Shown here piece by piece: positions 1,627-45,377 of a stretch of DNA of 64,000 nt. Position numbers and translations under genes: made by a program. The DNA lies in contig MGPH01000028.1 in NCBI GenBank assembly GCA_001797365.1, forward strand, positions 5,687-69,686, written 5' to 3'. Numbering within the stretch: position 1 is the first letter of the stretch; each line of letters starts with the position of its first letter. Source of the DNA: Deltaproteobacteria bacterium GWA2_45_12 (GTDB taxonomy: Bacteria > UBA10199). The notes under the pieces were generated by a model, which was not told the origin of the DNA, did no database searches, and saw only the letters and a program-made list of their open reading frames with translations.

Positions 1627-2277
1627 ATGTCATCTTTTCAATCCCAATTCTTGGGACGAATTTCTTATGCCGAAGCTCTTGGGTTAATGCAAGAATTTAA
1701 AGCGAAGCGGCAGAATAACGAAATAGGGGACCAGATTCTCTTTTTGGAACACCAAGCTGTCGTCACCATGGGAAGAAAACCTTCCGAAAAAGATTTATAT
1801 CTTAAGAAAGAAGAGCTTCTTAAAAAAAATATCGATTTTGTCAAAACAGATCGGGGTGGCAAGCTTACTTACCATGGGCCTGGGCAGTTGGTGATTTATT
1901 TTGTTTTTGATATTCAAAAACGGGGATATTCCATTGAAGAGTGGGTTTGGAATGTGGAGGAAGGGGTCAGAAAGTTTTTGAGCGAGAAGGGAGTTGAGTG
2001 TGAGCGGGATGAGGATAATCCGGGGTTGTGGGTGAGGGCGGCTCACGAACCGCCCCTACAAAAAATTTGCTCCGTAGGATTTCATGTTTCTAAAGGGGTG
2101 ACAACCCATGGTGTGGCCCTGAATCTTGATTGTGATCTAACCCCTTTTGGTTATTTTTTACCGTGTGGTGTTGAAGGCAGAGGAATAACCAGTGTTTTAA
2201 AAGAGACAGGGAAAAAATTGTTCTTGGAAGAAGCCGCAAAAGAAATTGAAGGTATTTATCGGGGGTTGTTTACGTAG
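1627..2277 (+). CDS. lipB: lipoyl(octanoyl) transferase LipB
   Basis: RGGKLTYHGPGQLVIY motif and the KICSVG catalytic region are present. Contains the in-frame 25 nt palindromic element at 2036-2060. The stop TAG 2275-2277 lies inside a GTAGGGG repeat. Confidence 0.9.
   Translation: MSSFQSQFLGRISYAEALGLMQEFKAKRQNNEIGDQILFLEHQAVVTMGRKPSEKDLYLKKEELLKKNIDFVKTDRGGKLTYHGPGQLVIYFVFDIQKRGYSIEEWVWNVEEGVRKFLSEKGVECERDEDNPGLWVRAAHEPPLQKICSVGFHVSKGVTTHGVALNLDCDLTPFGYFLPCGVEGRGITSVLKETGKKLFLEEAAKEIEGIYRGLFT
2036..2060. repeat. Family-1 palindromic element gggcggctcacgaaccgcccctaca inside the lipB coding frame
   Basis: Near-identical copy at 45352-45377 (gggcggttcacgaaccgcccctaca). Encodes RAAHEPPLQ between the conserved LWV and KICSVG blocks of LipB. 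Confidence 0.8.
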
Positions 2278-2300
2278 GGGCGCCGCTTGCCGCGCCCCCC
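2274..2300. repeat. Family-1 half-site gtaggggcgccgcttgccgcgcccccc
   Basis: Same arm as at 13103-13126. Overlaps the lipB stop codon. Confidence 0.8.
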
Positions 2301-2308
2301 ATGCACCC

Positions 2309-3508
2309 TCACCCCAACCAGATCGATTCCCGTTTTTTAAGGCGTTTGTTGATCATGCTTTGAATGGTCTGTCTTACTTCTTCTGAAAGACGGTTGATAA
2401 GCAAGTCGTCATTTAAACCCTGTTCCCCATATTTTTCGTAGGAAATAGCGGGGGCGTATTGGATGTCCCATTTGGCAGGAAGCGGGATAAGCCCAAAAAG
2501 CCCAAGCCAGGGGAAGGTGGGGGTAAAGGGGATGAAGGGGACCCCAATGGCCTTTGCCAGGGAATTGGATTTGAAAATGACGGGATGAATTTCTTCAGCC
2601 CCGATGACGGCCGTGGGAACGATGGGGCTTTTGGTTTTCATGGCCAGCTTTATGAAGCCACCCCGACCAAAACGCTGAAGTTTATAACGGTTTTTAAAAC
2701 TTTTACCGATTCCCTTGACGCCCTCAGGAAACACAATGACCGCGTGCCCGGCTTTAAGAAGCAATTCGGCATTTTCCGGGCAGGCACGCACCCCACCCAG
2801 CCGATGCATGGCTGTTCCCAGAAAGGGCATGTGATAGGCAAAATCTTCGACCAAAAATCGGGCATCCTCGCGCACGGGGTGGTCATTCATAATGGCTACT
2901 TTAAGCATGGAGCCATCCCAGGGAATGGTTCCTGAATGATTGGCGACAATAAGGGCGGGGCCCTCATCGGGAACATGATGCATATCCCAGGTATTGACCC
3001 GCCAATAGGTTTGATACATGAAATCAAAAAAAGGTTTTACTTTTTCAATCAACCGCCGGTCCATGCCGAAGAGATCCACTTCTTCTTCATATTCCTGGTT
3101 GCCTAAACTCTGGATGACGTTTCGATAAAAATCAAAAGTGAACACCTTCACCAGTTGCGAGGTGAGGTTTTTGACCAATTCAAGACGGTCTTTTTCTTCT
3201 TGTTCCAGTTTTTCTTGAATGGATAGAAAATTGAAGGTTTTCTGAACACGGGCCTCCAATTGTTCGGCAAATTGTTCCAGCTCGCATCGCAATTGCAGTT
3301 CGCCTAGCTTGTGGGAAATTTTTTTGTTGATAAGGGTGCTTAAATCATTGTCTGCCATTTCTATGGATTGGGCTAAACTTTGGGGAAGCGTGTTTAAGCT
3401 TTCATCAAGATTCTTGGCGAGGTTTTCAAAAATGGGTGGAGATTCTTTTCTGTTTTTACCACGATAGAAAGAAAGCACTTTGGGATTTTGTTTTAACGGT
3501 TGTTCCAT
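2309..3508 (-). CDS. lysophospholipid (1-acyl-sn-glycerol-3-phosphate) acyltransferase family protein with N-terminal coiled-coil extension
   Basis: NHSGTIPWD (H-x4-D-like) and VIVFPEG acyltransferase motifs in the C-terminal half. About 190 aa of charged helical N-terminal extension. Confidence 0.7.
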   Translation of the reverse strand: MEQPLKQNPKVLSFYRGKNRKESPPIFENLAKNLDESLNTLPQSLAQSIEMADNDLSTLINKKISHKLGELQLRCELEQFAEQLEARVQKTFNFLSIQEKLEQEEKDRLELVKNLTSQLVKVFTFDFYRNVIQSLGNQEYEEEVDLFGMDRRLIEKVKPFFDFMYQTYWRVNTWDMHHVPDEGPALIVANHSGTIPWDGSMLKVAIMNDHPVREDARFLVEDFAYHMPFLGTAMHRLGGVRACPENAELLLKAGHAVIVFPEGVKGIGKSFKNRYKLQRFGRGGFIKLAMKTKSPIVPTAVIGAEEIHPVIFKSNSLAKAIGVPFIPFTPTFPWLGLFGLIPLPAKWDIQYAPAISYEKYGEQGLNDDLLINRLSEEVRQTIQSMINKRLKKRESIWLG

Positions 3509-3565
3509 ATAATATCCCCCTTTATCCCGCTACGCGGTGATAAAGGGGGATGATACGGGGGAAAC

Positions 3566-4585: not shown

Positions 4586-4711
4586 GAGGACTAAAACCCT
4601 CTACCCCCTGTTGTCCCCTCCTTCGACAGGCTCAGGACGGCGCTTACAAAGGGGGACAGAAGAATGAGTGAATCCCCTACAAAGAGGGACAGTTTTTAGT
4701 CTCCCCTCCTT

Positions 4712-4770
4712 TATAAGGAGGGGATTACCCATCATTCTCCCCTCCTTGTTAAGGAGGGGATTAAGGGGAG
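4712..4770. repeat. two tandem perfect palindromes TCCCCTCCTT-n3/4-AAGGAGGGGA
   Basis: Copies at 4712-4734 and 4748-4770. The arms resemble the anti-SD and SD sequences. They lie in the 5' leader of the epimerase gene and at the 3' end of the 4787 gene. Confidence 0.75.
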
Positions 4771-5265: not shown

Positions 5266-6120
5266 TTAGCCGACAATCTTCCCCATCCCCACAATCCCAT
5301 GGCATTTGGAATGTGTGGCAACAATAAATTTCGTAGGGGCGAGGTTTCCTCGCCCAAAACTCTTTTTCAATTTTCTCCATTCCTCCGCAATATTTTTTAA
5401 GGGGATGTAAGCCACGCCGTAAACCAATGCGGTGCAAAAAAAGGTGTGGATAGTTGTAGTTGGACCCTGAGCGGAGTGGGCCCTGAGCGGAGTCGAAGGG
5501 TTGAAGGGTCGCAGAACTTTCTTAAAATGTTCCCGAAAATCCCAAGTGCGTGGGGCTTGGGTGTGGGGGCAAATAGTGGGCTCGTCACAATCTAAGGGAC
5601 AGATCCAAGTTGCAAAACTTGTCGCTACAATTCCGGAATCGAAATTTTTTTGGTAGGGGGTGTTAAGGGATTGATTGTAAGGAATGATTTCTGTTTTAAA
5701 TCCTTCTTTCTCCAAGAGCTCTAAAAAAACCTTAAAAAAAACATGGGGGGCAGTGTGGTCGGGAATGAGGATGTCATTCTCATCAACGGTATAAACCCAA
5801 GGGCAAGCCTTGGAAGATTCTCCGCCTAAGGTGGAGGGTTTTGACCCGGCAAGGCGCGTCCCCGAAGCCAACGAGCGTAGGGGATCAAAACCCTGATTAA
5901 GAATATCGACGATAAATTGGGAATAAGATTTTTTAATGATTTGATTCGGATGTTTTTTTTCTGCCAGGGAATTTGGTTTGTCATCAACAAAGAACAGGGA
6001 TTTGAAATCGATAAGCCCTTCTTTTTTGGCCCTGATTAATTTTTGCCCGTAATCGAGCGAGAGTTTGTGGGTGCCGAGGATGTAAATAGAGTGAAGGGAG
6101 AACATTAGCCATTTCCTCAA
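5266..6120 (-). CDS. hypothetical Cys-containing protein; C-terminal portion is made of repeat-element sequence
   Basis: ORF of 284 aa. Two repeat elements (5333-5355, 5462-5510) fall in-frame in its C-terminal third. Confidence 0.45.
   Translation of the reverse strand: MRKWLMFSLHSIYILGTHKLSLDYGQKLIRAKKEGLIDFKSLFFVDDKPNSLAEKKHPNQIIKKSYSQFIVDILNQGFDPLRSLASGTRLAGSKPSTLGGESSKACPWVYTVDENDILIPDHTAPHVFFKVFLELLEKEGFKTEIIPYNQSLNTPYQKNFDSGIVATSFATWICPLDCDEPTICPHTQAPRTWDFREHFKKVLRPFNPSTPLRAHSAQGPTTTIHTFFCTALVYGVAYIPLKNIAEEWRKLKKSFGRGNLAPTKFIVATHSKCHGIVGMGKIVG
5333..5355. repeat. Family-1 element gtaggggcgaggtttcctcgccc
   Basis: gtaggggcg core with an internal hairpin. Confidence 0.7.
5462..5510. repeat. 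Family-2 tandem unit (ccctgagcggagtgggccctgagcggagtcgaaggg)
   Basis: Direct duplication of the cctgagcgg motif. Confidence 0.75.
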
Positions 6121-6125: not shown

Positions 6126-6195
6126 GGGCCTTCGACTTCGCTCAGGCATCGGTCTCTAAGCAGAGTGGTCCCCGAGCGGAGTCGAGGGGGCGAAG
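6126..6195. repeat. Family-2 repeat pair downstream of gltD
   Basis: Sequence gggccttcgacttcgctcagg ... ggtccccgagcggagtcgagggggcgaag. Confidence 0.75.
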
Positions 6196-6200
6196 TGACA

Positions 6201-7646
6201 TCAACACCCCATCAATAATTCCGTCTCCCCCATTAAATATTTGTCAATCGACTTCGCACATTCCCGCCCTTCGGCGATGGCCCAGACGATGAGGGACTGG
6301 CCGCGCCGGGCGTCTCCTGCGGCAAAGATGCCGGGGACGGAAGACATTTTTGTTTCATCGGTTTTAATGTTGCCACGCGCATCAAGAACTAGGCCTGCTT
6401 CTTCGATGGCGCCTTTTTTTTCAGGCCCGACAAACCCCAAAGCCAAAAGGACAAGATCGGCCTCAAGCGAGAATTCACTTCCGGGGATTTCTTTAAACGA
6501 TGGGCGTTCAGAAGGGGAGGACGGCTTTATCCATTCAAGATGGACGCAATTAATTTTTTTAATGACACCATTTTCTCCTGAAAAGCTTTTGGTCAAAATG
6601 GAATATTCACGAGCCCCCCCTTCGTCGTGGGCCGGTGAAGTTCTGTAAACAAGGGGCCATTGGGGCCAGGGGTTGTCAAAATCACGTTCTTTGGGAGGTT
6701 GGGGCAAAAGTTCAATTTGATGAATCTGTTTGGCCCCTTGACGGTGGGCGGTTCCCAGACAATCAGCTCCTGTATCACCACCCCCAAGGATGATGACGTT
6801 TTTTCCATGGGCGGTAATTTGATTTTCAATTTTTTCTCCGGCATTCACCCGGTTTTGCTGGGTAAGATATTCCATGGCCGGATGAATGCCTTTAAGTTCG
6901 CGTCCGGGAAGGGGCAGATCACGCGCCTGGGTAGAACCCATGCACAGAGCAATGGCATGATAATCTTTTTGAAGAGCTTTAAACGGCATGGTCTTGCCAA
7001 TGGAAACACTTGTTTTGAAAACAACCCCTTCGGCCTCCATTTGCTTGATGCGTTGGTCAATACGCCATTTTTCCATTTTAAAATCGGGGATTCCATAACG
7101 GAGTAAACCCCCAATGCGGTCATCGCGTTCAAAGACAGTCACTTCATGACCCACGCGGGCCAATTGTTGCGCACAGGCAAGGCCGGCCGGGCCTGAGCCC
7201 ACAACAGCTACCTTTTTACTGGTTAATTTTTTTGCAGGCTGGGGTTTGACCCATCCACTTTTAAAAGCATGATCGATAATATTAAACTCGATATATTTAA
7301 TAGTGACGGGCGGTGCGTTAATTCCAAGTACACACGCCCCTTCGCATGGGGCCGGGCACAAGCGGCCGGTGAATTCAGGAAAATTATTGGTGGCATGCAA
7401 ACGGTCGATGGCGTCTTTCCAGCGGTTACGATAAACAAGATCATTCCAATCGGGGATCAAATTACCCAAAGGGCAGCCTTGATGACAAAAGGGGACGCCG
7501 CAGTCCATGCAACGGGCTCCCTGGCGCTTGATGGAGTCTTCCGGGAATTCCTTGTAGATTTCCTTGTAGTCGTGAACCCTTTCCTGAATGGAACGTTCAG
7601 GGGTGCCTTCACGAGGGTATTCCATAAAACCGGTAGGCTTACCCAT
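6201..7646 (-). CDS. gltD: glutamate synthase (NADPH) small subunit GltD
   Basis: N-terminal 4Fe-4S Cys clusters ([16 protein letters not shown]; [11 protein letters not shown]) and FAD/NAD(P) Rossmann motifs ([12 protein letters not shown]). Overlaps gltB by 8 nt. Confidence 0.9.
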
Positions 7647-12293: not shown

Positions 12294-13100
12294 TCAAGGC
12301 AATTTTTCAGATTTCTCCGTTTTTTTACGGTGCAATACCCAAAAAAGAGGAAGCGCGATCCAGGCAAGATCGGCCAAGGCCAGGAACCATTGGCGAAGGA
12401 AAAGAGTGATCAGCCAATTGAACGCAAAAATTCCGAAATATAAATAAACACCGTAGGGGCGCTGCTTGCTGCGCCCATCATACGGCAAATTGCGGGCGCA
12501 GCAAGCAGCGCCCCTACACAAAAGAATATTTATTCCCACAATCAAGAACGCCGTTAAAAACCAACCGGCAAAATTGAAGAAGGGGATGCCAAAATAAAAA
12601 CCGGGATGGGGGTAGTGGTAAATCTTTCCCAAAAACCATTGTTCTCCCATGTTGGATAAAGGATCGACAATGATATCGAGAATGGTGGTGAAAAGGGCGG
12701 CGAGGAGGGGAAGACGTAGCTCGTGAGTTCGTAAGCTCGTCGCTCGTCGCTCGTCATTCGGGGTCCCCGTATTACGAGCAACGAGCAACGAGCGACGAGC
12801 AACGAACTCCGCCACACTATACCCCGCAAAACAAAGAAAGACATAAGACATCGAATCCCAAACGGGGACACCCCAATTAAGCCATTCCCCTTGAAGGTTT
12901 TCATAAATATAAAAATACCATCCATAGGGAAAACCGGTTCGAATCGAAAGCCCTTCAGAAATCCATGCGATGAAATAACCGACAATCAAAAACTGAAACG
13001 TAAAACGCCACCCGTGACTGCGTATGGCAATGAAAAGATAAGTGAGTAAAAAAAGAGTGACATACCACCGGTGCGAGAATGTGTAGAAAAGAATATCCAT
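12294..13100 (-). CDS. polytopic membrane protein (DUF422/carotenoid-associated-like?) carrying two in-frame palindromic insertions
   Basis: Multiple TM helices on both sides of the insertions. The insertions encode VAEFVARRSLLVARNTGTPNDERRATSLRTHELR and [25 protein letters not shown]. Confidence 0.55.
   Translation of the reverse strand: MDILFYTFSHRWYVTLFLLTYLFIAIRSHGWRFTFQFLIVGYFIAWISEGLSIRTGFPYGWYFYIYENLQGEWLNWGVPVWDSMSYVFLCFAGYSVAEFVARRSLLVARNTGTPNDERRATSLRTHELRLPLLAALFTTILDIIVDPLSNMGEQWFLGKIYHYPHPGFYFGIPFFNFAGWFLTAFLIVGINILLCRGAACCARNLPYDGRSKQRPYGVYLYFGIFAFNWLITLFLRQWFLALADLAWIALPLFWVLHRKKTEKSEKLP
12453..12517. repeat. Family-1 inverted pair gtaggggcgctgcttgctgcgccc ... gggcgcagcaagcagcgcccctac
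   Basis: 24 bp arms around a 17 nt spacer. Lies inside the 12294..13100 coding frame. Confidence 0.85.
12725..12808. repeat. long imperfect palindrome centred on ggggtcccc with gctcgtc/gacgagc heptad arms
   Basis: Sequence gctcgtcgctcgtcgctcgtcattcggggtccccgtattacgagcaacgagcaacgagcgacgagc. Lies in-frame in the membrane protein. Confidence 0.75.
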
Positions 13101-13102: not shown

Positions 13103-13168
13103 TGTAGGGGCGCCGCTTGCCGCGCCCATTATTGGAAAAACATTAGGGCGCGGCAAGCAGCGCCCCTA
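13103..13168. repeat. Family-1 inverted pair gtaggggcgccgcttgccgcgccc ... gggcgcggcaagcagcgcccctac
   Basis: Lies between the membrane protein start and the epimerase 3' end. Supplies the last 8 codons and the stop of the epimerase. Confidence 0.85.
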
Positions 13169-14162
13169 CGGTATATTGTTTCACCTGAATTTTTAGGGCC
13201 TCATCAATGGAATGACAGGAAAACCCCAATTCGTTTTTAGCCTTGGTGGTATCCATATAAAAAGGAATCCTGACAGAACGTATTCCTTCAAGAGTTCCCA
13301 AGGGAGTGTTGCCGGTAAATAAAGCCAGTTTTTCCATAAGTCCACTTGTAAGGCAGGCCAACCCATACGGAATTTTAAAACCCAATCTGGCTTGATGGGA
13401 ATTGGCCGCCACTTTCTTGTAAAAGATTTCAAAGCTTAGATTGGGGCCCCCCAAGATATACCGATGGCCCCTTAACCCGTCTTGCATGGCTTGAAGATGA
13501 CCTTTCACCAAGCTGCGCACATCCACCATGTTAAACCCGGTGGGGTAATAAAAACGCCCCATTTTTTTTTGAAGAATCATCCGGATGAGAAATCCCACAG
13601 GGCTTGGCAAAAAATCTCCGGGGCCCACGGGCATGGTGGGGTTTACAATGACGGCATGACGTTTCTGGGCATATTCCAAAACTATTTTTTCTGCGGCAAT
13701 TTTGCTTCGGGTATAAGGGCCGGGAGCATTGCTTTCTTCCAGAAGATGGTTTTCGGAAGCAGTGGGGTTTTGGTTGGTTCTTTTCAGAACTTCAGAAGAG
13801 CTTGTATGAACCAAGCCTTCAACATGATGTTTTAAGCAGGCATCACAGACATGTTGGGTCCCCTTGATGTTGATTTCTTCATGGTCTTTTCTTCGTTTTG
13901 TCCCCAAATGACTCAAGGCTGCCAAATGAAAAACATGGGAGGCTCCGGAAACAGCCTTGGACACATCGTTTTTGTTTCGAATGTCCCCCAAAAAAATTTC
14001 CAGACGATTACTTGCCAAAATAGGGTTTCCATTTTCAGGGTGGCGTAAAGGATCCGAGGGCAACATAAAAGCCCTAATGCGACTTTGGGTTGATTTGAGA
14101 AGATGAAGAATGAGATTGGAGCCGATAAAACCGCTGGCCCCCGTGACAAGGATGAGTTTCAT
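13143..14162 (-). CDS. NAD-dependent epimerase/dehydratase (3-beta-HSD / HpnA-like sugar epimerase family)
   Basis: MKLILVTGASGFIGSNLILHLL Rossmann start and the YxxxK region. Start ATG 14160-14162 overlaps the upstream stop (ATGA coupling). Confidence 0.8.
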   Translation of the reverse strand: MKLILVTGASGFIGSNLILHLLKSTQSRIRAFMLPSDPLRHPENGNPILASNRLEIFLGDIRNKNDVSKAVSGASHVFHLAALSHLGTKRRKDHEEINIKGTQHVCDACLKHHVEGLVHTSSSEVLKRTNQNPTASENHLLEESNAPGPYTRSKIAAEKIVLEYAQKRHAVIVNPTMPVGPGDFLPSPVGFLIRMILQKKMGRFYYPTGFNMVDVRSLVKGHLQAMQDGLRGHRYILGGPNLSFEIFYKKVAANSHQARLGFKIPYGLACLTSGLMEKLALFTGNTPLGTLEGIRSVRIPFYMDTTKAKNELGFSCHSIDEALKIQVKQYTVGALLAAP

Positions 14163-16326: not shown

Positions 16327-16363
16327 CTATTAATGACAGATCCGGGAACAAATCCCCCTTAAT

Positions 16364-16425
16364 CCCCCTTTTTTAAAGGGGGAGAAAACATGGGGCCCGT
16401 ATCGTCCCCCTTTAAAAAAGGGGGA
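16364..16425. repeat. pair of C5-T/A-G5 hairpins (ccccctttttt aaaggggg; tcccccttt aaaaaaggggga)
   Basis: Mirror arrangement between the EF-hand gene and tRNA-Pro. Confidence 0.5.
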
Positions 16426-16520
16426 TTCCAGGGGGATTTTACCCGAATCCATACCTTTTGCTTGACGAAAGAGAGCCTCATCCGTTATCTGTTTCCCCCC
16501 TTTGTTTTTGATTTTTTTTG

Positions 16521-16595
16521 CGGGGCGTAGCGCAGCCCGGCTAGCGCACTCCCTTGGGGTGGGAGTGGTCGCAGGTTCAAATCCTGTCGCCCCGA
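16521..16595 (+). tRNA. tRNA-Pro(GGG): tRNA-Pro (anticodon GGG)
   Basis: Acceptor stem CGGGGCG/CGCCCCG, anticodon stem CTCCC/GGGAG with loop TTGGGGT, and a TTCAAAT T-loop. No encoded CCA. Confidence 0.85.
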
Positions 16596-16600
16596 CATTT

Positions 16601-16676
16601 GAGTGGTCGTCCGCCGAAGGCGGATCGCCCCGACATTTGAGTGGTCGTCCGCCGAAGGCGGATCGCCCCGACATTT
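16601..16676 (+). repeat. two tandem 38-nt degenerate copies of the tRNA-Pro 3' half
   Basis: Unit gagtggtcgtccgccgaaggcggatcgccccgacattt. It matches tRNA 16563-16600 except that the T-arm (caggttcaaatcctg) is replaced by the hairpin tccgccgaaggcgga. Confidence 0.85.
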
Positions 16677-16705
16677 TGTAGGGACCCCGTAACGCGGGGT
16701 CCCTA
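16677..16705. repeat. palindrome gtagggaccccgtaacgcggggtccctac
   Basis: Variant of the gtagggg...cccctac family. Directly upstream of recG. Confidence 0.7.
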
Positions 16706-16716
16706 CATTCAATCCC

Positions 16717-18807: not shown

Positions 18808-18814
18808 ATATTTT

Positions 18815-18862
18815 GGTCCCTGAGCGAAGTCGAAGGGACGGTGTGCTTCGACTCCGCTCAGC
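18815..18862. repeat. Family-2 repeat immediately 5' of lipA
   Basis: Sequence ggtccctgagcgaagtcgaagggacggtgtgcttcgactccgctcagc. Confidence 0.8.
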
Positions 18863-24892: not shown

Positions 24893-24902
24893 TACTGGGC
24901 AT

Positions 24903-24968
24903 GGTCCCTGAGCGAAGTGGTCCCCGAGCGGAGTCGAGGGGTCGAAGGGACACCTCGACTCCGCTCGG
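24903..24968. repeat. Family-2 repeat between etfB and etfA
   Basis: Sequence ggtccctgagcgaagtggtccccgagcggagtcgaggggtcgaagggacacctcgactccgctcgg. Confidence 0.8.
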
Positions 24969-24994
24969 TGACCACCCCTAAAGAGGAGAAAATC

Positions 24995-25983: not shown

Positions 25984-26901
25984 ATGAATGATCCAAGTTT
26001 TGAGGTTTTTAGGGAGGCTCTCTTGCACGAAAAGCAAGCTTCCCCCCATACGGTTAAAAACTACCTCCATGATCTCAAAGAGTTTTGGGGATACCTGCAT
26101 CAATTCAGTCCAGAATGTATAAATAATAAAAAACTTGAACTAAATAAAGTTAACCCATTAATACTAAGGGGGTTTTTATCTTTTATATTTCAAGGGAAAA
26201 GTCCTGCTACTGTAGCGCGAAAACTTTCGACTTTGCGAACTTTCTTTCATTTTTGGGTTAAAAGAGGTGTTTTAAGCCAGAACCCGGCCAAGGCGATTTC
26301 ATCCCCAAAAATTCCCAAAAAATTGCCCCGTTTTTTAAATGTGGATGAAATTTTTGCCCTTTTAGATATTGCGGTAACCGACGATTTTCAGGGAAGACGG
26401 GATTGTGCCATCTTGGAATTACTTTATTCATCGGGCTTACGCGTTAGTGAACTGGTGGGGCTGGATGAAACCTGTGTTGATTTGGAAAACAGGTTGGTTA
26501 AAGTCTTGGGAAAGGGACGCAAAGAGCGTATTGTGCCCGTGGGGAAAAAAGCCATTGAAAAACTGAAAATCTACTTGGAAAAACGGGATAAAGTATTGGC
26601 CCAATTAAAAACGACAAACAAAACATCGTCTGTTTTTTTAAATCGTAGGGGCGAGCGTCTGAATGTAAGGAGTGTTCAACGTTTGGTGAGGCAGGCTTTA
26701 GTCAGATCGGGGTTGGGTAAAGAAATATCGCCCCATGGCTTACGGCACACTTTTGCCACCCATTTATTGAATGCCGGGGCCGATTTGCGGTCCATTCAAG
26801 AACTCTTGGGGCATGCAAATTTGTCAACCACCCAAAAATATACCCATGTCAATGTGGAACAATTGATGAAGGTGTATGATTCGGCGCATCCAAAGGCATG
26901 A
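25984..26901 (+). CDS. xerC: tyrosine recombinase XerC
   Basis: HGLRHTFATHLL..LGHANLSTTQKYTHV catalytic box. Classical xerC-hslV-hslU synteny. Confidence 0.9.
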   Translation: MNDPSFEVFREALLHEKQASPHTVKNYLHDLKEFWGYLHQFSPECINNKKLELNKVNPLILRGFLSFIFQGKSPATVARKLSTLRTFFHFWVKRGVLSQNPAKAISSPKIPKKLPRFLNVDEIFALLDIAVTDDFQGRRDCAILELLYSSGLRVSELVGLDETCVDLENRLVKVLGKGRKERIVPVGKKAIEKLKIYLEKRDKVLAQLKTTNKTSSVFLNRRGERLNVRSVQRLVRQALVRSGLGKEISPHGLRHTFATHLLNAGADLRSIQELLGHANLSTTQKYTHVNVEQLMKVYDSAHPKA

Positions 26902-26925: not shown

Positions 26926-27000
26926 GTAGGGGCGAACCTTGCCTGCCCGCCTCAGGAGGGTATTCGCCCTGAAATGGGCGATCACAAGGATCGCCCCTAC
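26926..27000. repeat. Family-1 MITE-like element with 10 bp TIR (gtaggggcga / tcgcccctac)
   Basis: Lies between xerC and hslV. Confidence 0.75.
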
Positions 27001-28983: not shown

Positions 28984-28989
28984 ATGTTT

Positions 28990-29050
28990 GGTCCCCAAGC
29001 GAAGTGGTCCCCGAGCGGAGTCGAGGGGTCGAAGGGCCATCTCGACTCCG
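28990..29050. repeat. Family-2 repeat immediately 5' of argB
   Basis: Near-identical to 24903-24968. Confidence 0.8.
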
Positions 29051-29089
29051 TTTGGTACCCGTTCATCGATTAGATTTACGGAGAAAATA

Positions 29090-31344: not shown

Positions 31345-32235
31345 ATGAAACATTGTCTTACATTAAAAAATTTGGGGGCCGAAACCATTTTATCCATTTT
31401 GGATAGAGCCCTTTATTTCAAAAAAAATCGTCAGCCACTGACTCTTTTAAATGGGAAGGTGTTGGGACTTATCTTTGAAAAAGAATCAACGCGTACGCGT
31501 ATTTCATTTGAGGTAGCCATGGGAAGGCTGGGGGGCACCAGTATTTATCTCAGCCAGTCTTCAAGCCAGATTTCCCGTGGGGAAACCTATGCGGATACCG
31601 CCCGGGTTTTATCGCGTTATCTGGATGCCCTTGTTTTGCGTGCTTATTCCCAGGCCGATCTGGAAGAATTGGCAAGCCATGCTTCCATTCCTGTGATTAA
31701 TGGATTAACCGATGACGCCCATCCTTGTCAGGTGCTTGCCGATCTTATGACCATCCTGGAGAAAAAAGGGAAATGGGATGATTTGAAAATCGCCTACATT
31801 GGTGATGGCAACAATATGACAAACACCTGGATTGAAGCGGCCCTGTTATTGAATTTTAATCTTCACGTGGCCTGTCCCAAGGGATATGGGCCTTCCAAAG
31901 AACTTGTTTCTAGTGTTAAAGGAATTGAGTCCATTGGATTAACATCTAAACCGCTTGAGGCGGTGGCTCATGCCGATGTAATCAATACGGACACTTGGTT
32001 TTCAATGGGGCAAAAGGTTTCCCAGGCAAAAAGAAAAAAATTCAAGGGGTTTCAGATCAACCGGGCCCTGCTTCAAAAAGCGAGTCCCGATGTCATTGTG
32101 CTTCACTGCCTGCCGGCCCATCGCGGAGAAGAAATAACTGATGAGGTTTTAGATGGCCCCCATTCTGTGGTTTTTGATGAGGCGGAAAACAGGCTGTATG
32201 TGCAAATGGCTTTGTTGGAATATTTGTTAACGTAG
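31345..32235 (+). CDS. argF: ornithine carbamoyltransferase
   Basis: STRTRISFE and HCLP motifs. The stop TAG is again inside a gTAGggg repeat. Confidence 0.9.
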
Positions 32236-32255
32236 GGGCGCTGCTTGCTGCGCCC
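32233..32255. repeat. Family-1 half-site gtaggggcgctgcttgctgcgccc
   Basis: Identical to the arm at 12453-12476. Confidence 0.8.
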
Positions 32256-32275: not shown

Positions 32276-33481
32276 ATGACAAAAAAAATCAAAAAAGTAG
32301 TTCTCGCTTACTCTGGTGGTTTGGATACTTCCGTCATTTTAAGATGGCTTATCGAGACATATCAGTGCGAGGTTGTCTGTTTTGCGGCTGATTTGGGGCA
32401 GGGAGAAGAGTTGGACCATCTGGATGAAAAAGCCAAAAAGACGGGTGCTTCCAAAATTTATATTGATGATCTTCGGGAAGAGTTTGTGCGGGACTTTGTT
32501 TTTCCTATGTTGCGTGCGAATACGGTTTATGAAGGCAGTTATTTGTTGGGAACTTCCATTGCCCGTCCTTTAATTGCCAAACGTCAGATTGAAATTGCCC
32601 TAAAAGAAGGTTGTGATGCCGTTTCCCACGGGGCCACAGGCAAGGGCAATGATCAGGTGCGTTTTGAACTTACTTACTACGCCTTAAAGCCGGACATTCA
32701 TGTGATTGCCCCCTGGCGCGAGTGGTCCCTTGATTCACGTCAGTCCCTCCTTGATTATGCGGCCAAGCACGGCATCCCTGTGCCCGTCACACCCAAAAAA
32801 CCTTACAGCTCTGACCGTAATTTGTTGCACATCAGTTTTGAAGGAGGAATTTTGGAAGACCCCTGGAAGGCGCCCCCTGATGATATGTTCCTCCTTTCGG
32901 TTTCTCCTGAAGACGCCCCTGACAAGCCCGAGATTATTGAAATCGACTATGAAAAAGGAAACCCTGTTGCGGTCAATGGTGAAAAATTGAGCCCGGCTAT
33001 GTTGCTTGCCAAATTAAACATGCTTGGTGGCAAACATGGAATAGGCCGTGTGGATCTTGTTGAAAACCGTTTTGTGGGCATGAAAAGCCGTGGCGTTTAT
33101 GAAACTCCGGGCGGTTCCATTTTACATGTGGCTCACCGCGCTGTTGAGTCGCTGACCATGGACCGCGAAGTCTTGCATTTAAGGGATGGTCTCATCCCTA
33201 AATATTCCGAGCTTGTTTATTACGGCTTTTGGTATGCCCCCGAACGCGAACTTCTCCAAAACCTGATTGATGACTCACAATCAAACGTCACAGGCACGGC
33301 GCGTTTGAAACTTTATAAGGGTAATATCACTGTGTTGGGCCGAAAGGCAAAGGCCAGTCTTTTTAACCAGGAAATTGCCACTTTTGAAAAAGACACCGTC
33401 TACAACCAAAAAGATGCCGAGGGCTTCATCAAATTGAATGCCCTTCGCTTGCGTATTCGTAAAATGGTTGGGATTTCATAA
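32276..33481 (+). CDS. argG: argininosuccinate synthase
   Basis: [13 protein letters not shown]-loop. Confidence 0.95.
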
Positions 33482-33491
33482 AAAATGTTAT

Positions 33492-33552
33492 GGTTCGACG
33501 GAGCTCACCATGTCCGATATAAGGACACCCTGAGCTTGTCGAAGGGTTGATC
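33492..33552. repeat. short MITE derivative (both terminal modules back to back)
   Basis: Sequence ggttcgacggagctcaccatgtcc ... ggacaccctgagcttgtcgaaggg. Confidence 0.6.
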
Positions 33553-38187: not shown

Positions 38188-38288
38188 GGACATGGTGAGC
38201 CCCGTCGAACCATGATTCGGCCCCACGCGGGTGATGGTTCGACCACCGCGTAGCGGGGTCCCGTGTGCGGGACAAGCTCACCATGTCC
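38188..38288. mobile_element. 101 bp MITE-like element with perfect 13 bp terminal inverted repeats (ggacatggtgagc / gctcaccatgtcc)
   Basis: Second copy at 62119-62237. Located downstream of dnaK. Confidence 0.7.
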
Positions 38289-38316
38289 TTTTTCTTTTCT
38301 CATACGAGGCAAGACA

Positions 38317-42252: not shown

Positions 42253-42333
42253 GAGGCGTGAAGTATCCTTACGATACAAAAATCACTCAAACAATTGACA
42301 AAGATTCATAGAGCATTATTCTAGAAAAATTTT

Positions 42334-43446
42334 ATGAAACGCGATTACTACGAAGTCTTGCAGGTAAGTAAAACGACCACCGAAGCCGACATCAAAAAGG
42401 CCTACCGTAAACTGGCTTTTCAATATCATCCCGACAAAAATTCTGGCGACAAAAAAGCTGAAGAACTTTTCAAGGAAGCCTCCGAAGCTTATGAAGTGCT
42501 TTCCGATGCGAACAAAAGGAAGCTCTACGACCAGTTTGGGCACCGTGGGCTCCAAGGAAGCGGTTTTCATGGCTTCTCGGGTGTTGATGAGGTTTTTGAT
42601 TCCTTTGGTGATATTTTTGAGGATTTTTTTGGTTTTTCAGGAGGGCGCGGTCGTTCGCGCACCCGGGCCAGGCAAGGTTCAGATTTAAGTTATGAGCTCG
42701 AAATCGATTTCATGGAAGCCTGTAAAGGGGTTAAAAAAATCATTCAAGTTCATAAAAGTATCCCTTGTCCCGAATGTGAAGGATCAGGGGCTAAAAAGGG
42801 GAGTCAGCCCCATATCTGCCCCCAATGCCAGGGGCATGGTCAGGTCCGGCATAATCAGGGCTTTTTCACTATTAGTACAACATGCCCGGCTTGTCATGGG
42901 GTTGGTCACAAAATAAAGGAATTTTGTGATGAATGCCGGGGGCAGGGGGCCGTACGTACTTCCAAAAAAATTGATGTTTCCATTCCTGCAGGTGTTGAAA
43001 ACGGGATTCGTTTGATGATTCATGGCGAGGGGGAAGCCGGCCTGCATGGGGGCCCGGCGGGGGATTTGTATGTTCATCTTTTAGTGAAAGAACATGAGAA
43101 TTTTAAAAGGGAAGGGGAACATATTGTTACAGAGCTGGCCGTGAATATGGCTTTGGCGGCTTTAGGGGGAAAAATAAAGGTTCCTACCATCGATGGAGAA
43201 GAGGAAATTTCCATTCCCGAAGGAATTCAAAATGGGGAAACCATTGTTCTTAAAGGCAGGGGTGTCCCGCATCTTCGTTCCAAACATCACGGAGACCAAA
43301 TTATTGTTGTACACGTTGAAACTCCAAGAAATTTAAGCAAGGATCAAAAAGAATTACTTCAACGCTTGGAAGAAAGTTTTGATAAAAATGCCCCTATTCA
43401 TCACAACAATAAAAGAAGTTCCAAAAAGAAGAGTTTTTTTGGATAA
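42334..43446 (+). CDS. dnaJ: chaperone DnaJ
   Basis: J domain (HPD), G/F region, four CxxCxGxG repeats. Confidence 0.95.
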
Positions 43447-43470
43447 TGCAGCTCTTCAAAGGGAGGTTGC

Positions 43471-44451
43471 ATGAATTTAGATGAATTGTCGGTAGAAGTT
43501 AGGTCTTTCCATTCGCTTGTTTCCCAAGCTTTTAACGAAATCGAAAAAACCATTGTCGGCCAAAAAGATCTGGTGAGTAAACTTCTTTTGGGTTTATTGA
43601 CCGATGGGCATATTCTGGTTGAGGGGGTGCCGGGACTAGCCAAGACAACCACGGTCAAAACAATGGCCCGGGTTATTTCCGCTTCCTTTCAGCGCATTCA
43701 ATTTACTCCCGATCTATTGCCCGCCGATATTCTAGGAACCCAAATTTACAATCCAAAAACCCAGGAGTTTTATGTAAAGCGCGGCCCCTTGTTTCACAAT
43801 ATTATTCTTGCTGATGAAATCAATCGCGCCCCGGCCAAGGTGCAAAGCGCTCTTTTGGAGGCCATGCAAGAAAAACAGATCACCATTGGGGAGCAAACTT
43901 TTAAGTTGGAAGAGCCCTTTATTGTGCTGGCCACACAAAATCCCATTGAACAGGAAGGCACCTATCCCTTGCCTGAAGCCCAGGTGGACCGCTTCATGCT
44001 GAAGTTGAATGTAAGTTACCCTTCAAAAGCGGAAGAGTTTCAAATCATGGAACGTGTGGCCAATAAAATGAGTGCTGAACCCAGGGCTGTTTTAAGTACG
44101 CAAAAAATTCTGGAGATGCGCGAGGTCATTCGCAAAATTTATATCGATCCCAAGCTTAACGATTACATCATCCGCCTTGTTTTTGCCACGCGCCAACCCG
44201 AAGAGTACGGACTAAAGCTTGGCCCCTACATCCGTTATGGGGCTTCCCCGCGAGCCTCCATTAATCTGCACATGGCGGCCAAGGGTTTGGCTTTCCTTAA
44301 AGGGAGGGCTTACGTCATTCCCGAAGATGTAAAGACAATCGCCCACGATGTGATGCGCCATCGTATTTTACTCACCTTTGAGGCTGAAGCCGAAGGCCTT
44401 ACCAGTGACTCTTTATTGCAACAGATTTTGGACGGCGTTGAGGTGCCTTGA
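43471..44451 (+). CDS. MoxR-family AAA+ ATPase
   Basis: Walker A GVPGLAKT; Walker B ILADEINRA. Confidence 0.9.
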   Translation: MNLDELSVEVRSFHSLVSQAFNEIEKTIVGQKDLVSKLLLGLLTDGHILVEGVPGLAKTTTVKTMARVISASFQRIQFTPDLLPADILGTQIYNPKTQEFYVKRGPLFHNIILADEINRAPAKVQSALLEAMQEKQITIGEQTFKLEEPFIVLATQNPIEQEGTYPLPEAQVDRFMLKLNVSYPSKAEEFQIMERVANKMSAEPRAVLSTQKILEMREVIRKIYIDPKLNDYIIRLVFATRQPEEYGLKLGPYIRYGASPRASINLHMAAKGLAFLKGRAYVIPEDVKTIAHDVMRHRILLTFEAEAEGLTSDSLLQQILDGVEVP

Positions 44452-45329
44452 TGCTCTCACCAGAACTTCTCAAAAAAATCGAGAACATTGTGATTAAAAG
44501 CCGTTATTTGGCCAACGAAATGTTTTCGGGCGAATATAAAACGGCTTTCCGCGGCCGGGGCATGGAATTCGAAGAGGTCAGGGAATACATTCCCGGAGAT
44601 GATGTGCGCTTGATTGACTGGAATGTTTCAGCCCGCATGGATAAGCCCTTTATTAAAGTCCATCGGGAAGAAAGAGAGCAGGCTGTCATGTTGGTAGTTG
44701 ATTTATCACAAAGCCTTTATTTCGGATCAAAAAAAAGATTGAAAAGAGAAGCGGTTGCCGAATTAGCGGCTGTTCTTGCCCGTGCCGCCACCAACAGCAA
44801 TGACAAAGTGGGCCTCATTTTATTTTCCGACCGGGTTGAATATTATCTGCCCCCCCGCAAAGGAAAAAGCCATGTCTGGCAAGTAGTCAAGAGCATTCTG
44901 ACCCATAAACCCATCGGGCAAAAAACAAATCTTGAAGGCGCACTTCATTTTTTAAGCAGGGTGGTCCATCGGCGCTGTGTTTGTTTTGTTATTTCTGATT
45001 TTTTGACGGAAGGCTTTGAAAGCGTGCTTAAAGCGGTTTCGCGCAGATACGATGTTGTTAATTTCATCATGCGTGACCCTTTGGAATTAAATTGGCCCGG
45101 GAAATCATTTGTGAACCTGAAAAGTGCCGAAGAAGAGGGGGTTTCCTTGGGCCAAAACATGGGAGGCAAAAACATAAGGAAATTTAATGAGTATCAAAAA
45201 TTGAGTATCCAAAATCTTACAGCACAATTCCAGGGCATGAATATGGATGCCCTTTTTCTAAAAACAAATGAAGATTACATCGATACCCTGATACGATTTT
45301 TTCGTTTTAGAGATAAAAGGAGAAATTAA
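44448..45329 (+). CDS. DUF58 (vWA-like) protein, MoxR partner
   Basis: 4 nt overlap with MoxR; DUF58 architecture. Confidence 0.8.
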   Translation: MMLSPELLKKIENIVIKSRYLANEMFSGEYKTAFRGRGMEFEEVREYIPGDDVRLIDWNVSARMDKPFIKVHREEREQAVMLVVDLSQSLYFGSKKRLKREAVAELAAVLARAATNSNDKVGLILFSDRVEYYLPPRKGKSHVWQVVKSILTHKPIGQKTNLEGALHFLSRVVHRRCVCFVISDFLTEGFESVLKAVSRRYDVVNFIMRDPLELNWPGKSFVNLKSAEEEGVSLGQNMGGKNIRKFNEYQKLSIQNLTAQFQGMNMDALFLKTNEDYIDTLIRFFRFRDKRRN

Positions 45330-45351
45330 GCATACCTCGTGTACCCGTGTA

Positions 45352-45377
45352 AGGGCGGTTCACGAACCGCCCCTACA
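45352..45377. repeat. Family-1 element gggcggttcacgaaccgcccctaca
   Basis: Same element as inside lipB. Its 3' end abuts the ATG at 45377. Confidence 0.8.

What the first reader, a model, noticed from the sequence alone, without database searches (positions are those of the whole stretch)
2274..45377. GTAGGGGCG...CGCCCCTAC repeat family provides stop and start codons of neighbouring genes
- At least ten copies share the termini gtagggg / cccctac: 2036, 2274, 5333, 12453, 13103, 16677, 26926, 32233, 45352.
- They occur as single arms, as 24 bp inverted pairs, or as 75 bp MITE-like units.
- The TAG stop of lipB (2275-2277) and of argF (32233-32235) both lie inside the GTAGGGG of an element.
- The last 8 codons plus the stop of the epimerase (13143) are encoded by an element arm.
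- The ATG at 45377 directly abuts cccctacATG.
- This suggests either a target preference for gene termini or that the elements have replaced native gene ends.
Basis: seen in the sequence. Interest (0 to 1): 0.6.

Follow-up and report, generated by a model that had tools for sequence, protein, structure and literature searches.

The report
GTAG-headed REP hairpins at gene ends
The repeats are an ordinary family of bacterial REP hairpin elements whose conserved GTAG head contains an amber codon; it is already published that such elements sit against gene ends, often supply the stop codon, and sometimes lie in frame inside genes.

Summary
GTAGGGGCG occurs 12 times in the window against 0.15 expected. 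Eleven arms are GTAG followed by a short G+C hairpin whose stem co-varies.

They occur as:
- single arms;
- 28-nt "double-foot" palindromes (GTAG…CTAC);
- inverted dimers that fold at about -58 kcal/mol.

This is the anatomy of GTAG-tagged REP/REPIN elements, not of a classical MITE: there are no target-site duplications.

The same 24-nt sequence occurs in many phyla. In 8 fetched loci it flanks, or sits in frame inside, RayT-type tyrosine transposase genes. That matches the published TnpA_REP subclass 2.4.

In 77 kb of the source genome (Deltaproteobacteria bacterium GWA2_45_12, 93% coding):
- 7 of 11 elements lie within 30 nt of a gene's 3' end (random expectation 0.9);
- three genes (lipB, argF, an aminotransferase) stop on the TAG of GTAG;
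- the epimerase gains an 8-residue REP-encoded tail;
- three elements lie in frame inside genes (lipB, a carotenoid-synthesis protein, an AF_1314_C protein).

Native protein ends are essentially intact.

Di Nocera et al. [quoted passage not shown] This is therefore a new member of a known kind, of low interest. Whether insertion targets stop codons or selection filters random insertions remains unresolved.

The parts
2032..2059 (-). 28-nt double-foot REP (GTAGGGGCGGTTCGTGAGCCGCCCTCAC on the - strand). It lies in frame inside lipB and encodes VRAAHEPPLQ just before the invariant Lys.
   Evidence: It is 93% identical to 45349-45377 (D4). Codon view. In the alignment with 19 LipB homologues it is a 6-residue longer loop found only in this genome.
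2274..2297 (+). Single REP arm (GTAG + GGGCGC cgcttgcc GCGCCC). Its TAG (2275-2277) is the lipB stop. It fills the 31-nt gap to the convergent acyltransferase gene (2309-3508, -).
   Evidence: RNA hairpin -15.7 kcal/mol. LipB C-terminus ends where homologues end.
5333..5355 (+). Single REP arm (GTAG GGGCGAGG ttt CCTCGCCC). It lies antisense inside the called CDS 5266-6105(-) (AF_1314_C family) and encodes GRGNLAPT.
   Evidence: Gene call and Pfam family. The coding status of the last 67 nt was not checked against homologues.
12453..12517 (.). Inverted REP dimer (REPIN, GTAG ends outward; 24-nt arms 100% complementary, 17-nt spacer). It lies in frame inside the carotenoid-biosynthesis gene 12294-13100(-) and encodes the 22-residue loop [22 protein letters not shown].
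   Evidence: I16. Folds at -58.5 kcal/mol, z -8.6. It occupies a variable-length loop in homologues. The identical 268-aa product is called in 7 contigs from several samples.
13104..13169 (.). Inverted REP dimer that fills the spacer between the epimerase gene (13143-14162, -) and the carotenoid gene start (13100). The epimerase reads 8 codons of the arm (VGALLAAP) and stops at TAA 13145-13143. The carotenoid ATG lies 3 nt past the other arm.
   Evidence: I20. Folds at -58.1 kcal/mol. Homologue C-termini are variable and the REP tail lies beyond the conserved region.
16678..16706 (.). 29-nt double-foot palindrome of a second GTAG family (GTAGGGACCCCG taacg CGGGGTCCCTAC), 10 nt upstream of the recG start (16717).
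   Evidence: A second copy lies at 65172-65200, just right of the window and 4 nt from the glpX 3' end (3 nt between them).
26926..27000 (.). 75-nt composite dimer: a long-loop arm (GTAG GGGCGAA...TTCGCCC) plus the short arm GGGCGATCACAAGGATCGCCCCTAC. It lies between the xerC-like stop (26901) and the hslV start (27014).
   Evidence: Folds at -47.1 kcal/mol, z -6.9. The long-loop arm recurs at 68718-68763(-) at 91% identity.
32232..32255 (+). Single REP arm. Its TAG (32233-32235) is the argF stop. It lies 20 nt upstream of the argG start (32276).
   Evidence: Deleting the 24 nt gives ...TTA ACA TGA TAG, which encodes the same protein, so a native-looking stop remains in frame directly downstream.
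45349..45376 (-). 28-nt double-foot REP (GTAGGGGCGGTTCGTGAACCGCCCTTAC on the - strand). It lies between the DUF58 gene stop (45329) and the called ATG at 45377.
   Evidence: (D4). Hairpin -23.9 kcal/mol. Gene calls.
26645..26653 (+). Not an element: a chance GTAGGGGCG inside xerC-type codons (AAT CGT AGG GGC GAG CGT = NRRGER), with no hairpin.

Best explanation
**What they are.** These are GTAG-tagged REP elements. Each unit is the tetranucleotide GTAG followed by a short G+C hairpin whose base is three G-C pairs. Units occur as single arms, as "double-foot" palindromes, and as inverted dimers (REPINs/BIMEs). They belong to the type that co-occurs with RayT (TnpA_REP) tyrosine transposases of the subclass 2.4 kind.

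**Spread (inferred by analogy).** A RayT acts on the folded single strand, with GTAG serving as its recognition or guide motif. No RayT was found in the 78 kb examined.

**Why gene ends (shown as a pattern, cause inferred).** The genome is 93% coding. Copies persist almost only in the short spacers downstream of genes. GTAG carries TAG in one frame, and the other five reading frames of the element are open. A copy that lands on the last codon or codons is therefore harmless:
- it ends the protein at once (lipB, argF, an aminotransferase);
- or it adds a short tail (epimerase);
- or, in a surface loop, it is read through (lipB interior, carotenoid protein).

**Likely effect (inferred from E. 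coli REP work).** As RNA, the hairpins sit 0-25 nt behind stop codons. There they probably protect the upstream mRNA from 3' exonucleases, slow terminating ribosomes, and mask the start region of the next gene so that its translation is coupled to the gene upstream.
For: **Anatomy.**
- 12 copies of the 9-mer against 0.15 expected.
- 11 arms are GTAG plus a hairpin, against 0-6 GTAG-hairpins in shuffles.
- The sixth stem pair is C-G in 6 arms, G-C in 2 and A-T in 4, and further pairs co-vary.
- Dimers fold at -47 to -58 kcal/mol with z from -6.9 to -9.2.
- No target-site duplications.

**Link to RayT.**
- The same 24-mer is found in at least 120 genome loci from many phyla and 119 metagenome loci.
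- RayT-like genes lie directly beside or around it in L095, L013, L096, L243, L187, L163, L214, L191 and L171.
- NF047646 REP_Tyr_transpos matches at E = 1.6e-18, and PF01797 scores above its cut-off for L095.
- 6154 homologues were found, several named "REP element-mobilizing transposase RayT" by JGI.
- 82 of 88 carry a REP-encoded peptide after the HuH motif.
- Quentin et al. 2018 describe exactly these traits for TnpA_REP subclass 2.4: three G-C pairs at the stem base, double-foot REPs, and in-frame REPs inside tnpA_REP.

**Position.**
- 8 of 11 elements lie mostly outside CDS (expected 0.74) and 7 of 11 within 30 nt of a 3' end (expected 0.91), both p <= 2e-4.
- None lies between divergent genes.
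- The TAG of GTAG is the stop for 3 genes in the source genome and for 15 of 59 validated head-facing genes elsewhere, with 1 read-in.

**Protein ends intact:**

**Literature.**
[quoted passage not shown] It also reports REPs <20 bp from ORF 3' ends and intragenic REP dimers encoding 20-30 aa.
- Corneloup 2021 treats GTAG as a guide-like motif, with cleavage at CT/CA.
- Liang et al. 2015, as summarised in PMC12306157, found that REPs <16 nt from a stop stall ribosomes.
Against: - No RayT gene was found in the window or its 14-kb extensions. The rest of the source genome could not be searched.
- The genome-wide copy number is only extrapolated (about one element per 7 kb).
- No presence/absence polymorphism was found among the available strains, which are 100% identical. 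Mobility in this genome is therefore not shown.
- All functional effects (mRNA protection, ribosome stalling, coupling) are inferred from E. coli work on a different REP family. Only one arm resembles an intrinsic terminator.
- The carotenoid loop and the lipB loop look replaced rather than simply inserted, because excision would leave loops shorter than in any homologue. A single clean insertion does not explain that.
Confidence: 0.88

Rival explanations
1. Targeted integration. The elements are REPs, but they sit on stop codons because integration is aimed at them. One version is that the hairpin inserts immediately 3' of a pre-existing (G)TAG, so amber stops are natural targets and the GTAG head is partly target-derived. 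Selection among random insertions would then not be the cause.
For: - Frame use is very skewed. 15 head-facing genes stop on the TAG and 1 reads in, whereas random insertion into gene ends predicts 1:2.
- Heads face upstream genes more often than tails do (59 against 25).
- LipB and ArgF termini are unchanged.
- In 5 of 13 cases no in-frame stop lies within 30 codons after excising the element, as if the TAG were the native stop.
Against: - In IS200/IS605 relatives the guide tetranucleotide belongs to the element, and GTAG is bound by RayT.
- For argF and L022, excising 24 nt including GTAG restores an immediate in-frame stop, which favours GTAG arriving with the element.
- Both ends of dimers and double-foot forms carry GTAG/CTAC.
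- Most heads (43 of 59) lie downstream of a separate native stop.
- Selection against peptide tails could produce the same skew.
Confidence: 0.12
2. Classical MITEs: internally deleted DDE-type insertion sequences with terminal inverted repeats, moved in trans by a full-length IS.
For: The 65-75-nt units have inverted termini (GTAGGGG...CCCCTAC) and are dispersed.
Against: - No target-site duplications flank any unit.
- Single 24-nt arms and 28-nt palindromes are as common as dimers.
- Each arm is itself a hairpin with the REP-defining GTAG head.
- The associated genes elsewhere are HuH/Y1 RayT, not DDE transposases.
Confidence: 0.03
3. Host-evolved regulatory hairpins (intrinsic terminators, attenuators or protein-binding operators) that arose in place behind each gene rather than by spread of a mobile sequence.
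For: All lie in transcribed positions behind genes. One arm (13166-13145, -) is followed by a T-rich tail and is picked up by the terminator scan.
Against: - Terminator-like sites are no more frequent than in shuffles (33 against 32.8), and the other arms lack T tails.
- Near-identical 24-mers behind unrelated genes, inside coding sequences, and in many phyla next to RayT genes cannot be explained by independent origin.
- No Rfam family matches.
Confidence: 0.03

Closest known systems
GTAG-tagged REP superfamily (Di Nocera, De Gregorio & Rocco 2013, BMC Genomics 14:522)
   Same: - A GTAG head plus a 6-9-bp G+C stem.
- Single arms and head-to-head dimers with GTAG outward.
- Several families co-exist in one genome.
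- Location between unidirectional or convergent ORFs, close to 3' ends.
- The TAG of the head serves as the stop codon.
- In-frame intragenic arms and dimers encode about 8-30 residues.
   Different: - This host (an uncultured groundwater deltaproteobacterial MAG) was not in that survey.
- Which of their 24 families the GGGCG-core sequence matches could not be checked. The figure is not held, and no match was found in the text or supplements.
- The share of intragenic copies is higher here: 3 of 11 elements, against about 3% of arms in other genomes. The sample is small.
REPs cognate to TnpA_REP subclass 2.4 / RAYT group 4 (Quentin et al. 2018; Bertels et al. 2017)
   Same: - A 5' GT[AG]G head.
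- Three consecutive G-C pairs at the stem base.
- "Double-foot" forms with CTAC at the 3' end.
- Patchy distribution over many phyla.
- REPs inserted in frame inside the transposase gene between the HuH and Tyr motifs. This was seen here in 8 loci and in 82 of 88 homologues.
   Different: - The subclass assignment rests on shared features, not on the authors' profiles.
- The RayT of the source genome itself was not found in the DNA available.
REPINs of Pseudomonas (Bertels & Rainey 2011)
   Same: Two inverted REPs separated by a short spacer form one long hairpin, which is thought to be the mobile unit.
   Different: The sequence differs, and so probably does the RayT group (group 3 in Pseudomonas). 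Single arms and double-foot forms are as frequent as dimers here.
Rickettsia palindromic elements (RPE; Ogata et al. 2000, as cited in PMC3733652)
   Same: Palindromic repeats tolerated in frame inside genes that appear functional, encoding surface loops.
   Different: RPE-1 is longer (cited as the 'longer palindromic insertions' in Di Nocera 2013; about 100-150 nt by my recollection, not checked here). The short RPE-4/6 belong to the CGTC-tagged superfamily, not the GTAG one. No RayT link is reported for them.
E. coli REPs close to stop codons (Liang, Rudd & Deutscher 2015)
   Same: The hairpin starts within 15 nt of the stop codon, the position in which REPs stall terminating ribosomes and lower expression.
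   Different: E. coli REPs are longer, bulged stems of another family. No experiment exists for this family.

Membership tests
REP (repetitive extragenic palindrome), GTAG superfamily | A short (20-50 nt) palindrome immediately preceded by a conserved GTAG | tested here: met
   11 arms are GTAG plus a perfect stem of 6-9 bp starting 0-1 nt after GTAG.
REP (repetitive extragenic palindrome), GTAG superfamily | The stem is maintained by compensatory changes among copies | tested here: met
   Sixth pair is C-G in 6 arms, G-C in 2 and A-T in 4. Pairs 7 and 8 also co-vary.
REP (repetitive extragenic palindrome), GTAG superfamily | High copy number, dispersed over the genome | tested here: inconclusive
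   11 elements (about 15 arms) in 77 kb, with further copies in both directions outside the finding's range.
REP (repetitive extragenic palindrome), GTAG superfamily | Mostly extragenic, between unidirectional or convergent genes, near 3' ends | tested here: met
   8 of 11 mostly outside CDS and 7 of 11 within 30 nt of a 3' end, both p <= 2e-4. None lies between divergent genes.
REP-RAYT system (REPtron) | A RayT/TnpA_REP gene in the same genome, flanked by the cognate REPs | not testable with these tools
   No Y1 transposase in the window plus 14 kb of flanks. The rest of the MAG could not be scanned. No GWA2_45_12 protein appears among the best 120 RayT homologues.
REP-RAYT system (REPtron) | The same REP sequence flanks RayT genes elsewhere | tested here: met
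   - L095: RayT-like ORF 7000-7602 lies between 28-nt palindromes at 6971-6998 and 7611-7638.
- L214, L187, L163, L191, L171 and L243: REP arms lie within 0-130 nt of, and inside, the RayT-like ORF.
- Family assignment.
REPs of TnpA_REP subclass 2.4 (Quentin 2018) | Three G-C pairs at the stem base, double-foot variants, and in-frame REPs inside tnpA_REP between HuH and Tyr | tested here: met
   - Every stem begins GGG/CCC.
- Double-foot copies are at 2032-2059 and 45349-45376, and 34 of 155 arms in other genomes are double-foot.
- 82 of 88 homologues have a REP-type peptide after HuH.
- Published description read.
REPIN | Two REPs in inverted orientation with a short spacer, folding as one long hairpin | tested here: met
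   12453-12517 (arms 100% complementary), 13104-13169 (96%) and 26926-27000. Folding energies are -58.5, -58.1 and -47.1 kcal/mol.
MITE (DDE-type) | Target-site duplications flanking terminal inverted repeats | tested here: not met
   The 12-nt flanks of all 11 elements show no direct repeats.
Intrinsic (Rho-independent) terminator | A G+C hairpin followed directly by a run of U | tested here: not met
   Only the 13166-13145(-) arm qualifies. The scan total equals the shuffle expectation (33 against 32.8), and the other arms have 1-3 T in the next 10 nt.
Known structured RNA family (Rfam) | A match to a curated covariance model | tested here: not met
   The only match in the window is tRNA-Pro.

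The most novel reading that the evidence does not exclude
The amber codon in the GTAG head may reflect a mechanism rather than tolerance. Under this reading, REPs of this family integrate preferentially at or onto stop codons, for example 3' of an existing (G)TAG or at sites exposed where translation ends. The resulting stop-plus-hairpin module would then be retained as a device that sets termination efficiency and couples translation of the next gene, as at epimerase|carotenoid and argF|argG. The 15:1 excess of TAG-frame stops over read-ins and the 59:25 head-to-gene orientation bias are compatible with this reading but do not prove it.
Probability: 0.12. Interest if true: 0.55.

Novelty: new member of a known kind. 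Interest (0 to 1): 0.2.

Why it matters
The main value is for annotation.
- In this MAG and its relatives, short G+C hairpin repeats define or alter the ends of genes and add loop residues to real enzymes. One such insertion in LipB sits directly before the invariant Lys that aligns with the catalytic lysine of LipB.
- Gene callers and homology tools should expect REP-derived peptides such as [16 protein letters not shown] and CRGAAC...RPY.
- The case also illustrates how compact genomes accommodate REP spread: the element carries its own stop codon in one frame and is open in the other five.
- It does not open a new question. The stop-codon overlap, the intragenic copies and the RayT link are all published.

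Tried and rejected
- **Literature search for the motif.** Searching papers for the literal sequences found only unrelated primers and promoters.
- **Genome-collection scan.** A metagenome scan restricted to A+T-rich flanks also missed the source organism.
- **Strain comparison.** Nine contigs from NCBI, ENA, JGI and Logan are 100% identical at every element, so no empty sites are available. The one 98-nt difference at the argG end is an NN scaffold gap.
- **Excision test.** I asked whether removing the element uncovers the native stop. It does for argF and L022, but overall 8 of 13 cases within 16 codons is about what chance gives.
- **L043.** It holds a RayT 45% identical to my recalled E. 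coli RayT sequence, but that gene is flanked by a different REP and carries an in-frame stop. It is not evidence for this family.
- **26645.** Rejected as an element.
- **Exact look-ups that found nothing.** The 361-aa epimerase ORF and ORF 716-1243 are not on record.
- **PDB search.** The AF_1314_C protein has no match, so the coding status of the region around 5333 could not be checked against a structure.
- **Di Nocera supplements.** They do not contain the motif as text.

Full report
**1.

GTAGGGGCG occurs 12 times on both strands of the window, against 0.15 expected from dinucleotide-preserving shuffles. The 7-mer GTAGGGG occurs 17 times against 3.95 expected. Reading the sites shows that eleven of them share one design. 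Each is the tetranucleotide GTAG, usually preceded by a pyrimidine (all 16 heads in the source genome). It is followed at once by a perfect hairpin whose stem starts GGGCG and ends CGCCC.

Beyond those five pairs the stem differs between copies but stays paired:
- the sixth pair is C-G in six arms, G-C in two and A-T in four;
- pairs seven and eight also co-vary.

A scan for "GTAG followed by a hairpin" finds 16 sites in the window against 0-6 in Markov shuffles.

The units come in three forms:
- single arms at 2274-2297, 5333-5355 and 32232-32255;
- 28-nt palindromes carrying GTAG on both strands at 2032-2059 and 45349-45376;
- inverted dimers with the GTAG ends outward at 12453-12517, 13104-13169 and 26926-27000.

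The dimers fold as single long hairpins of -58.5, -58.1 and -47.1 kcal/mol, with z-scores of -8.6, -9.2 and -6.9.

Two sites need correction:
- 16678-16706 (GTAGGGACCCCG...CGGGGTCCCTAC) is a GTAG-tagged palindrome of a second family.
- The match at 26645 is chance. It is ordinary XerC-type coding sequence (NRRGERL) with no hairpin.

**2. Relation to genes**

The window comes from "Deltaproteobacteria bacterium GWA2_45_12", a groundwater MAG. The same sequence is present at 100% identity in NCBI, ENA, JGI and Logan assemblies. Gene calls from those records were combined with 5.7 kb of extra sequence on the left and 8 kb on the right. This gives 77 kb that is 93% coding.

Eleven GTAG elements lie in that stretch:
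- eight lie mostly outside called CDS (random placement gives 0.74);
- seven lie within 30 nt of a CDS 3' end (random placement gives 0.91);
- both results have p <= 2e-4 in 5000 permutations;
- none lies between divergent genes.

The stop-codon claims check out as follows.
- The TAG of the head is the stop codon of lipB (2275-2277) and of argF (32233-32235).
- Just outside the window, it is also the stop of an aminotransferase (68762-68760 on the - strand).
- The epimerase enters the 13169(-) arm in the frame GTA GGG GCG. It gains VGALLAAP and stops at a TAA at the edge of the dimer's spacer.

- A double-foot unit in lipB encodes VRAAHEPPLQ.
- The whole 12453-12517 dimer in a carotenoid-biosynthesis membrane protein encodes [22 protein letters not shown].
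- The 5333 arm in an AF_1314_C-family gene encodes GRGNLAPT.

**3. Were native gene ends replaced?**

Hardly at all.
- **LipB.** Aligned with 19 homologues, it ends at the usual position (…IYRGLFT against …IFK, …GLL, …KIF). Its internal REP is a loop six residues longer than in any homologue and sits directly before an invariant Lys. From what is known of LipB, that residue corresponds to the catalytic lysine of the Cys/Lys dyad. This is my inference and was not tested here.
- **ArgF.** It matches the OTCase domain to profile position 156 of 157. Removing the 24-nt element yields ...TTA ACA TGA TAG. The protein is the same, and a stop sits exactly where the element was.
- **Epimerase.** Its conserved part ends at …KQYT. 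Homologues carry 0-20 variable residues there, and the REP supplies eight.
- **Carotenoid protein.** The dimer occupies a loop that varies from about 13 to 45 residues in homologues. Excising it would leave almost no loop, so it appears to have taken the place of the native loop rather than simply being added.
- **ATG at 45377.** It does abut CCCCTAC and is used by gene callers. There is no Shine-Dalgarno sequence, and the upstream 28 nt are locked in a -24 kcal/mol hairpin. In-frame ATGs lie further downstream, so I cannot tell whether 45377 is the real start.

**4. What the elements are**

The anatomy is that of REPs, not of classical MITEs: no unit is flanked by a target-site duplication.

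These came from Chloroflexota, Acidobacteriota, Gemmatimonadota, Planctomycetota, Armatimonadota, Cyanobacteria, Zixibacteria, Geobacter, Serratia, Erwinia and others. Two loop variants dominate:
- AGCATGCT in 52 of 155 arms;
- TGCTTGCT/C in 42 of 155 arms, which is the variant found in the window.

Thirty-four of the 155 arms are 28-nt double-foot palindromes.

Searching these loci with my recalled E. coli RayT sequence, and then with the hits themselves, found RayT-like genes beside the repeat.
- In L095 a 200-aa ORF with HuH (PDHVHGIL) and Tyr (RYIRDNPV) motifs lies between two copies of the palindrome.
- In L013 and L096 the repeat lies in frame inside the gene.
- NCBIfam's REP_Tyr_transpos is the best match (E = 1.6e-18, below its strict cut-off). 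Pfam Y1_Tnp is passed by L095.

A second, independent scan of metagenome contigs gave 119 loci (600 kb). Six more RayT-like genes were directly adjacent to, and interrupted in frame by, the repeat. They include loci of 41% and 47% G+C, close to the 45% of the source.

The family has 6154 detectable homologues, several named "REP element-mobilizing transposase RayT" by JGI. In 82 of 88 homologues the linker after the HuH motif is a REP-encoded peptide such as VGAGLALP…GAASSAPT or VGAGFKPAPT.

All of this is described for TnpA_REP subclass 2.4 (RAYT group 4) by Quentin et al. 2018:
- REPs with 5' GT[AG]G and three G-C pairs at the stem base;
- "double-foot" REPs;
- a patchy distribution across phyla;
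- REPs inserted in frame within tnpA_REP between HuH and Tyr.

No RayT gene lies in the 78 kb of the source genome that I could read. Whether this genome holds the enzyme is therefore untested.

**5. The stop-codon overlap is general and already published**

In the loci from other genomes I validated incoming ORFs by their GC3 > GC1 > GC2 pattern. Of 42 such ORFs ending within -45 to +75 nt of a head, 11 stop exactly on the TAG of GTAG. No other single position has more than two, and only one ORF reads into the element.

I repeated the count on single arms only and added the metagenome set.
- 15 of 59 head-facing genes stop on the TAG, and 1 reads in.
- Genes face the head more often than the tail (59 against 25).
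- About 3% of arms elsewhere are intragenic.

[quoted passage not shown] They report that REPs lie <20 bp from ORF 3' ends and mainly between unidirectional and convergent ORFs. They also report that intragenic REPs and dimers encoding 20-30 residues occur in several species.

**6. How it most likely works**

*Shown here:* the structure, the co-variation, the positional bias, the use of TAG as a stop, the intact protein ends, and the association of the same sequence with RayT genes in other organisms.

*Taken from published work:*
- GTAG is the motif recognised by TnpA_REP on folded single-stranded DNA and acts like the guide sequence of IS200/IS605. Cleavage is at CT or CA beside the REP, and how REPs are disseminated is still unknown (Corneloup et al. 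2021).
- E. coli REPs stabilise upstream mRNA. When they lie <16 nt from a stop codon, they stall ribosomes and lower expression (Liang et al. 2015 and earlier work, as summarised).

*My inferences:*
- In a genome with 7% non-coding DNA, the surviving copies are those in the short spacers behind genes.
- The element is well tolerated at and inside gene ends because one of its six reading frames gives an immediate stop and the other five are open.
- The hairpins that start 3 nt after the stops of lipB, argF and the aminotransferase lie inside the footprint of a terminating ribosome.
- In the epimerase/carotenoid pair, the upstream ribosome must melt the 5' arm of a -58 kcal/mol hairpin whose 3' arm ends 3 nt before the next ATG, which has no Shine-Dalgarno sequence. 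Translation of the second gene is therefore probably coupled to the first.

**7. What remains open**

The 15:1 preference for the TAG frame over read-in frames departs far from the 1:2 expected for frame-blind insertion into gene ends. Two explanations remain.
- Selection against peptide tails could explain it.
- So could integration directly behind existing amber codons, or onto stop codons.

The excision test does not decide between them. argF and L022 uncover an immediate in-frame stop, which favours GTAG arriving with the element. In 5 of 13 cases, however, no stop follows within 30 codons. The available strains of the source organism are identical at every element, so no empty site could be examined.

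**8. Verdict**

This is a GTAG-type REP/REPIN family in a host where it had not been described. It is a new member of a known kind, and its most striking property is already in the literature. Interest is low.

Noticed in passing
window 5461-5528, 6150-6217, 18814-18837, 24902-24975, 28989-29056: A second dispersed repeat family (TGGTCCCCGAGCGGAGTCGAGGGGTCGAAGGG), partly self-palindromic at 24917-24975. One copy is translated inside the called CDS 5266-6105(-) as RPFNPSTPLRAHSAQGP.
   Followed up: partly
window 33475-33515, 38188-38293, 62119-62242: A third repeat family (ATGGTTCGACGGAGCTCACCATGTCC and its inverse). It lies behind argG and near two other genes (D8, I4, I10).
   Followed up: no
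window 16339-16449: A 45-nt inverted pair rich in CCCCC/GGGGG (AATCCCCCTTAATCCCCC...AAAGGGGGA) lies upstream of tRNA-Pro (I2). A related peptide, SPQPPLKLRGGKGE, appears inside ORF 45377-45991. This suggests another repeat that is read in frame.
   Followed up: no
window 16587-16662 (tRNA-Pro is at 16521-16596): A perfect 38-nt tandem duplication starts inside the 3' end of tRNA-Pro(GGG). There are two copies in the window and three in ENA contig k141_642540. It may be a remnant of an integration site.
   Followed up: no
Source genome right of the window: 65172-65200 and about 68683-68763 (L130/L131): More GTAG-tagged units:
- a second GTAGGGACCCCG palindrome 4 nt from the glpX 3' end (3 nt between them);
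- a long-loop arm like 26926 whose TAG is the stop of an aminotransferase;
- paired with it, a third family, GTAGTGACAGGTCGCGACCTGTCACTAC.
   Followed up: yes
L013 3543-4370; L096 2062-2643; L163, L187, L191, L214, L243, L171: RayT-like genes carry their own REP or REP dimer in frame just after the HuH motif, and 82 of 88 database homologues do too. This is a published trait of TnpA_REP subclass 2.4.
   Followed up: yes
L017 7051-7078 (Phormidesmidales cyanobacterium MAG): The 28-nt palindrome GTAGGGGCGCAGCATGCTGCGCCCCTAC lies in frame inside a long ORF that is the gltB homologue. That ORF matches window gltB at 68-69% DNA identity.
   Followed up: partly
L111 (Chloroflexi MAG), about 1900-2250: A tandem array of 54-nt units, each containing one GTAGGGGCGCTGCTTGCCGCGCCC arm. 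It resembles the clustered GTAG-23 blocks reported for Thermomicrobium roseum.
   Followed up: no
window 13156-13128 (- strand): A weak sigma-70-like match (TTGCCG, 17 nt, AATAAT; 9 of 12) is formed by the REP dimer arm and spacer just upstream of the carotenoid gene. Promoter-like sites overall are fewer than in shuffles.
   Followed up: no
window 33397-33494 against L121 (DNQF01000128.1): The NCBI MAG appears to lack 98 nt at the argG 3' end, which would change the ArgG C-terminus. The junction is an NN scaffold gap, so this is an assembly artefact and not a polymorphism.
   Followed up: yes
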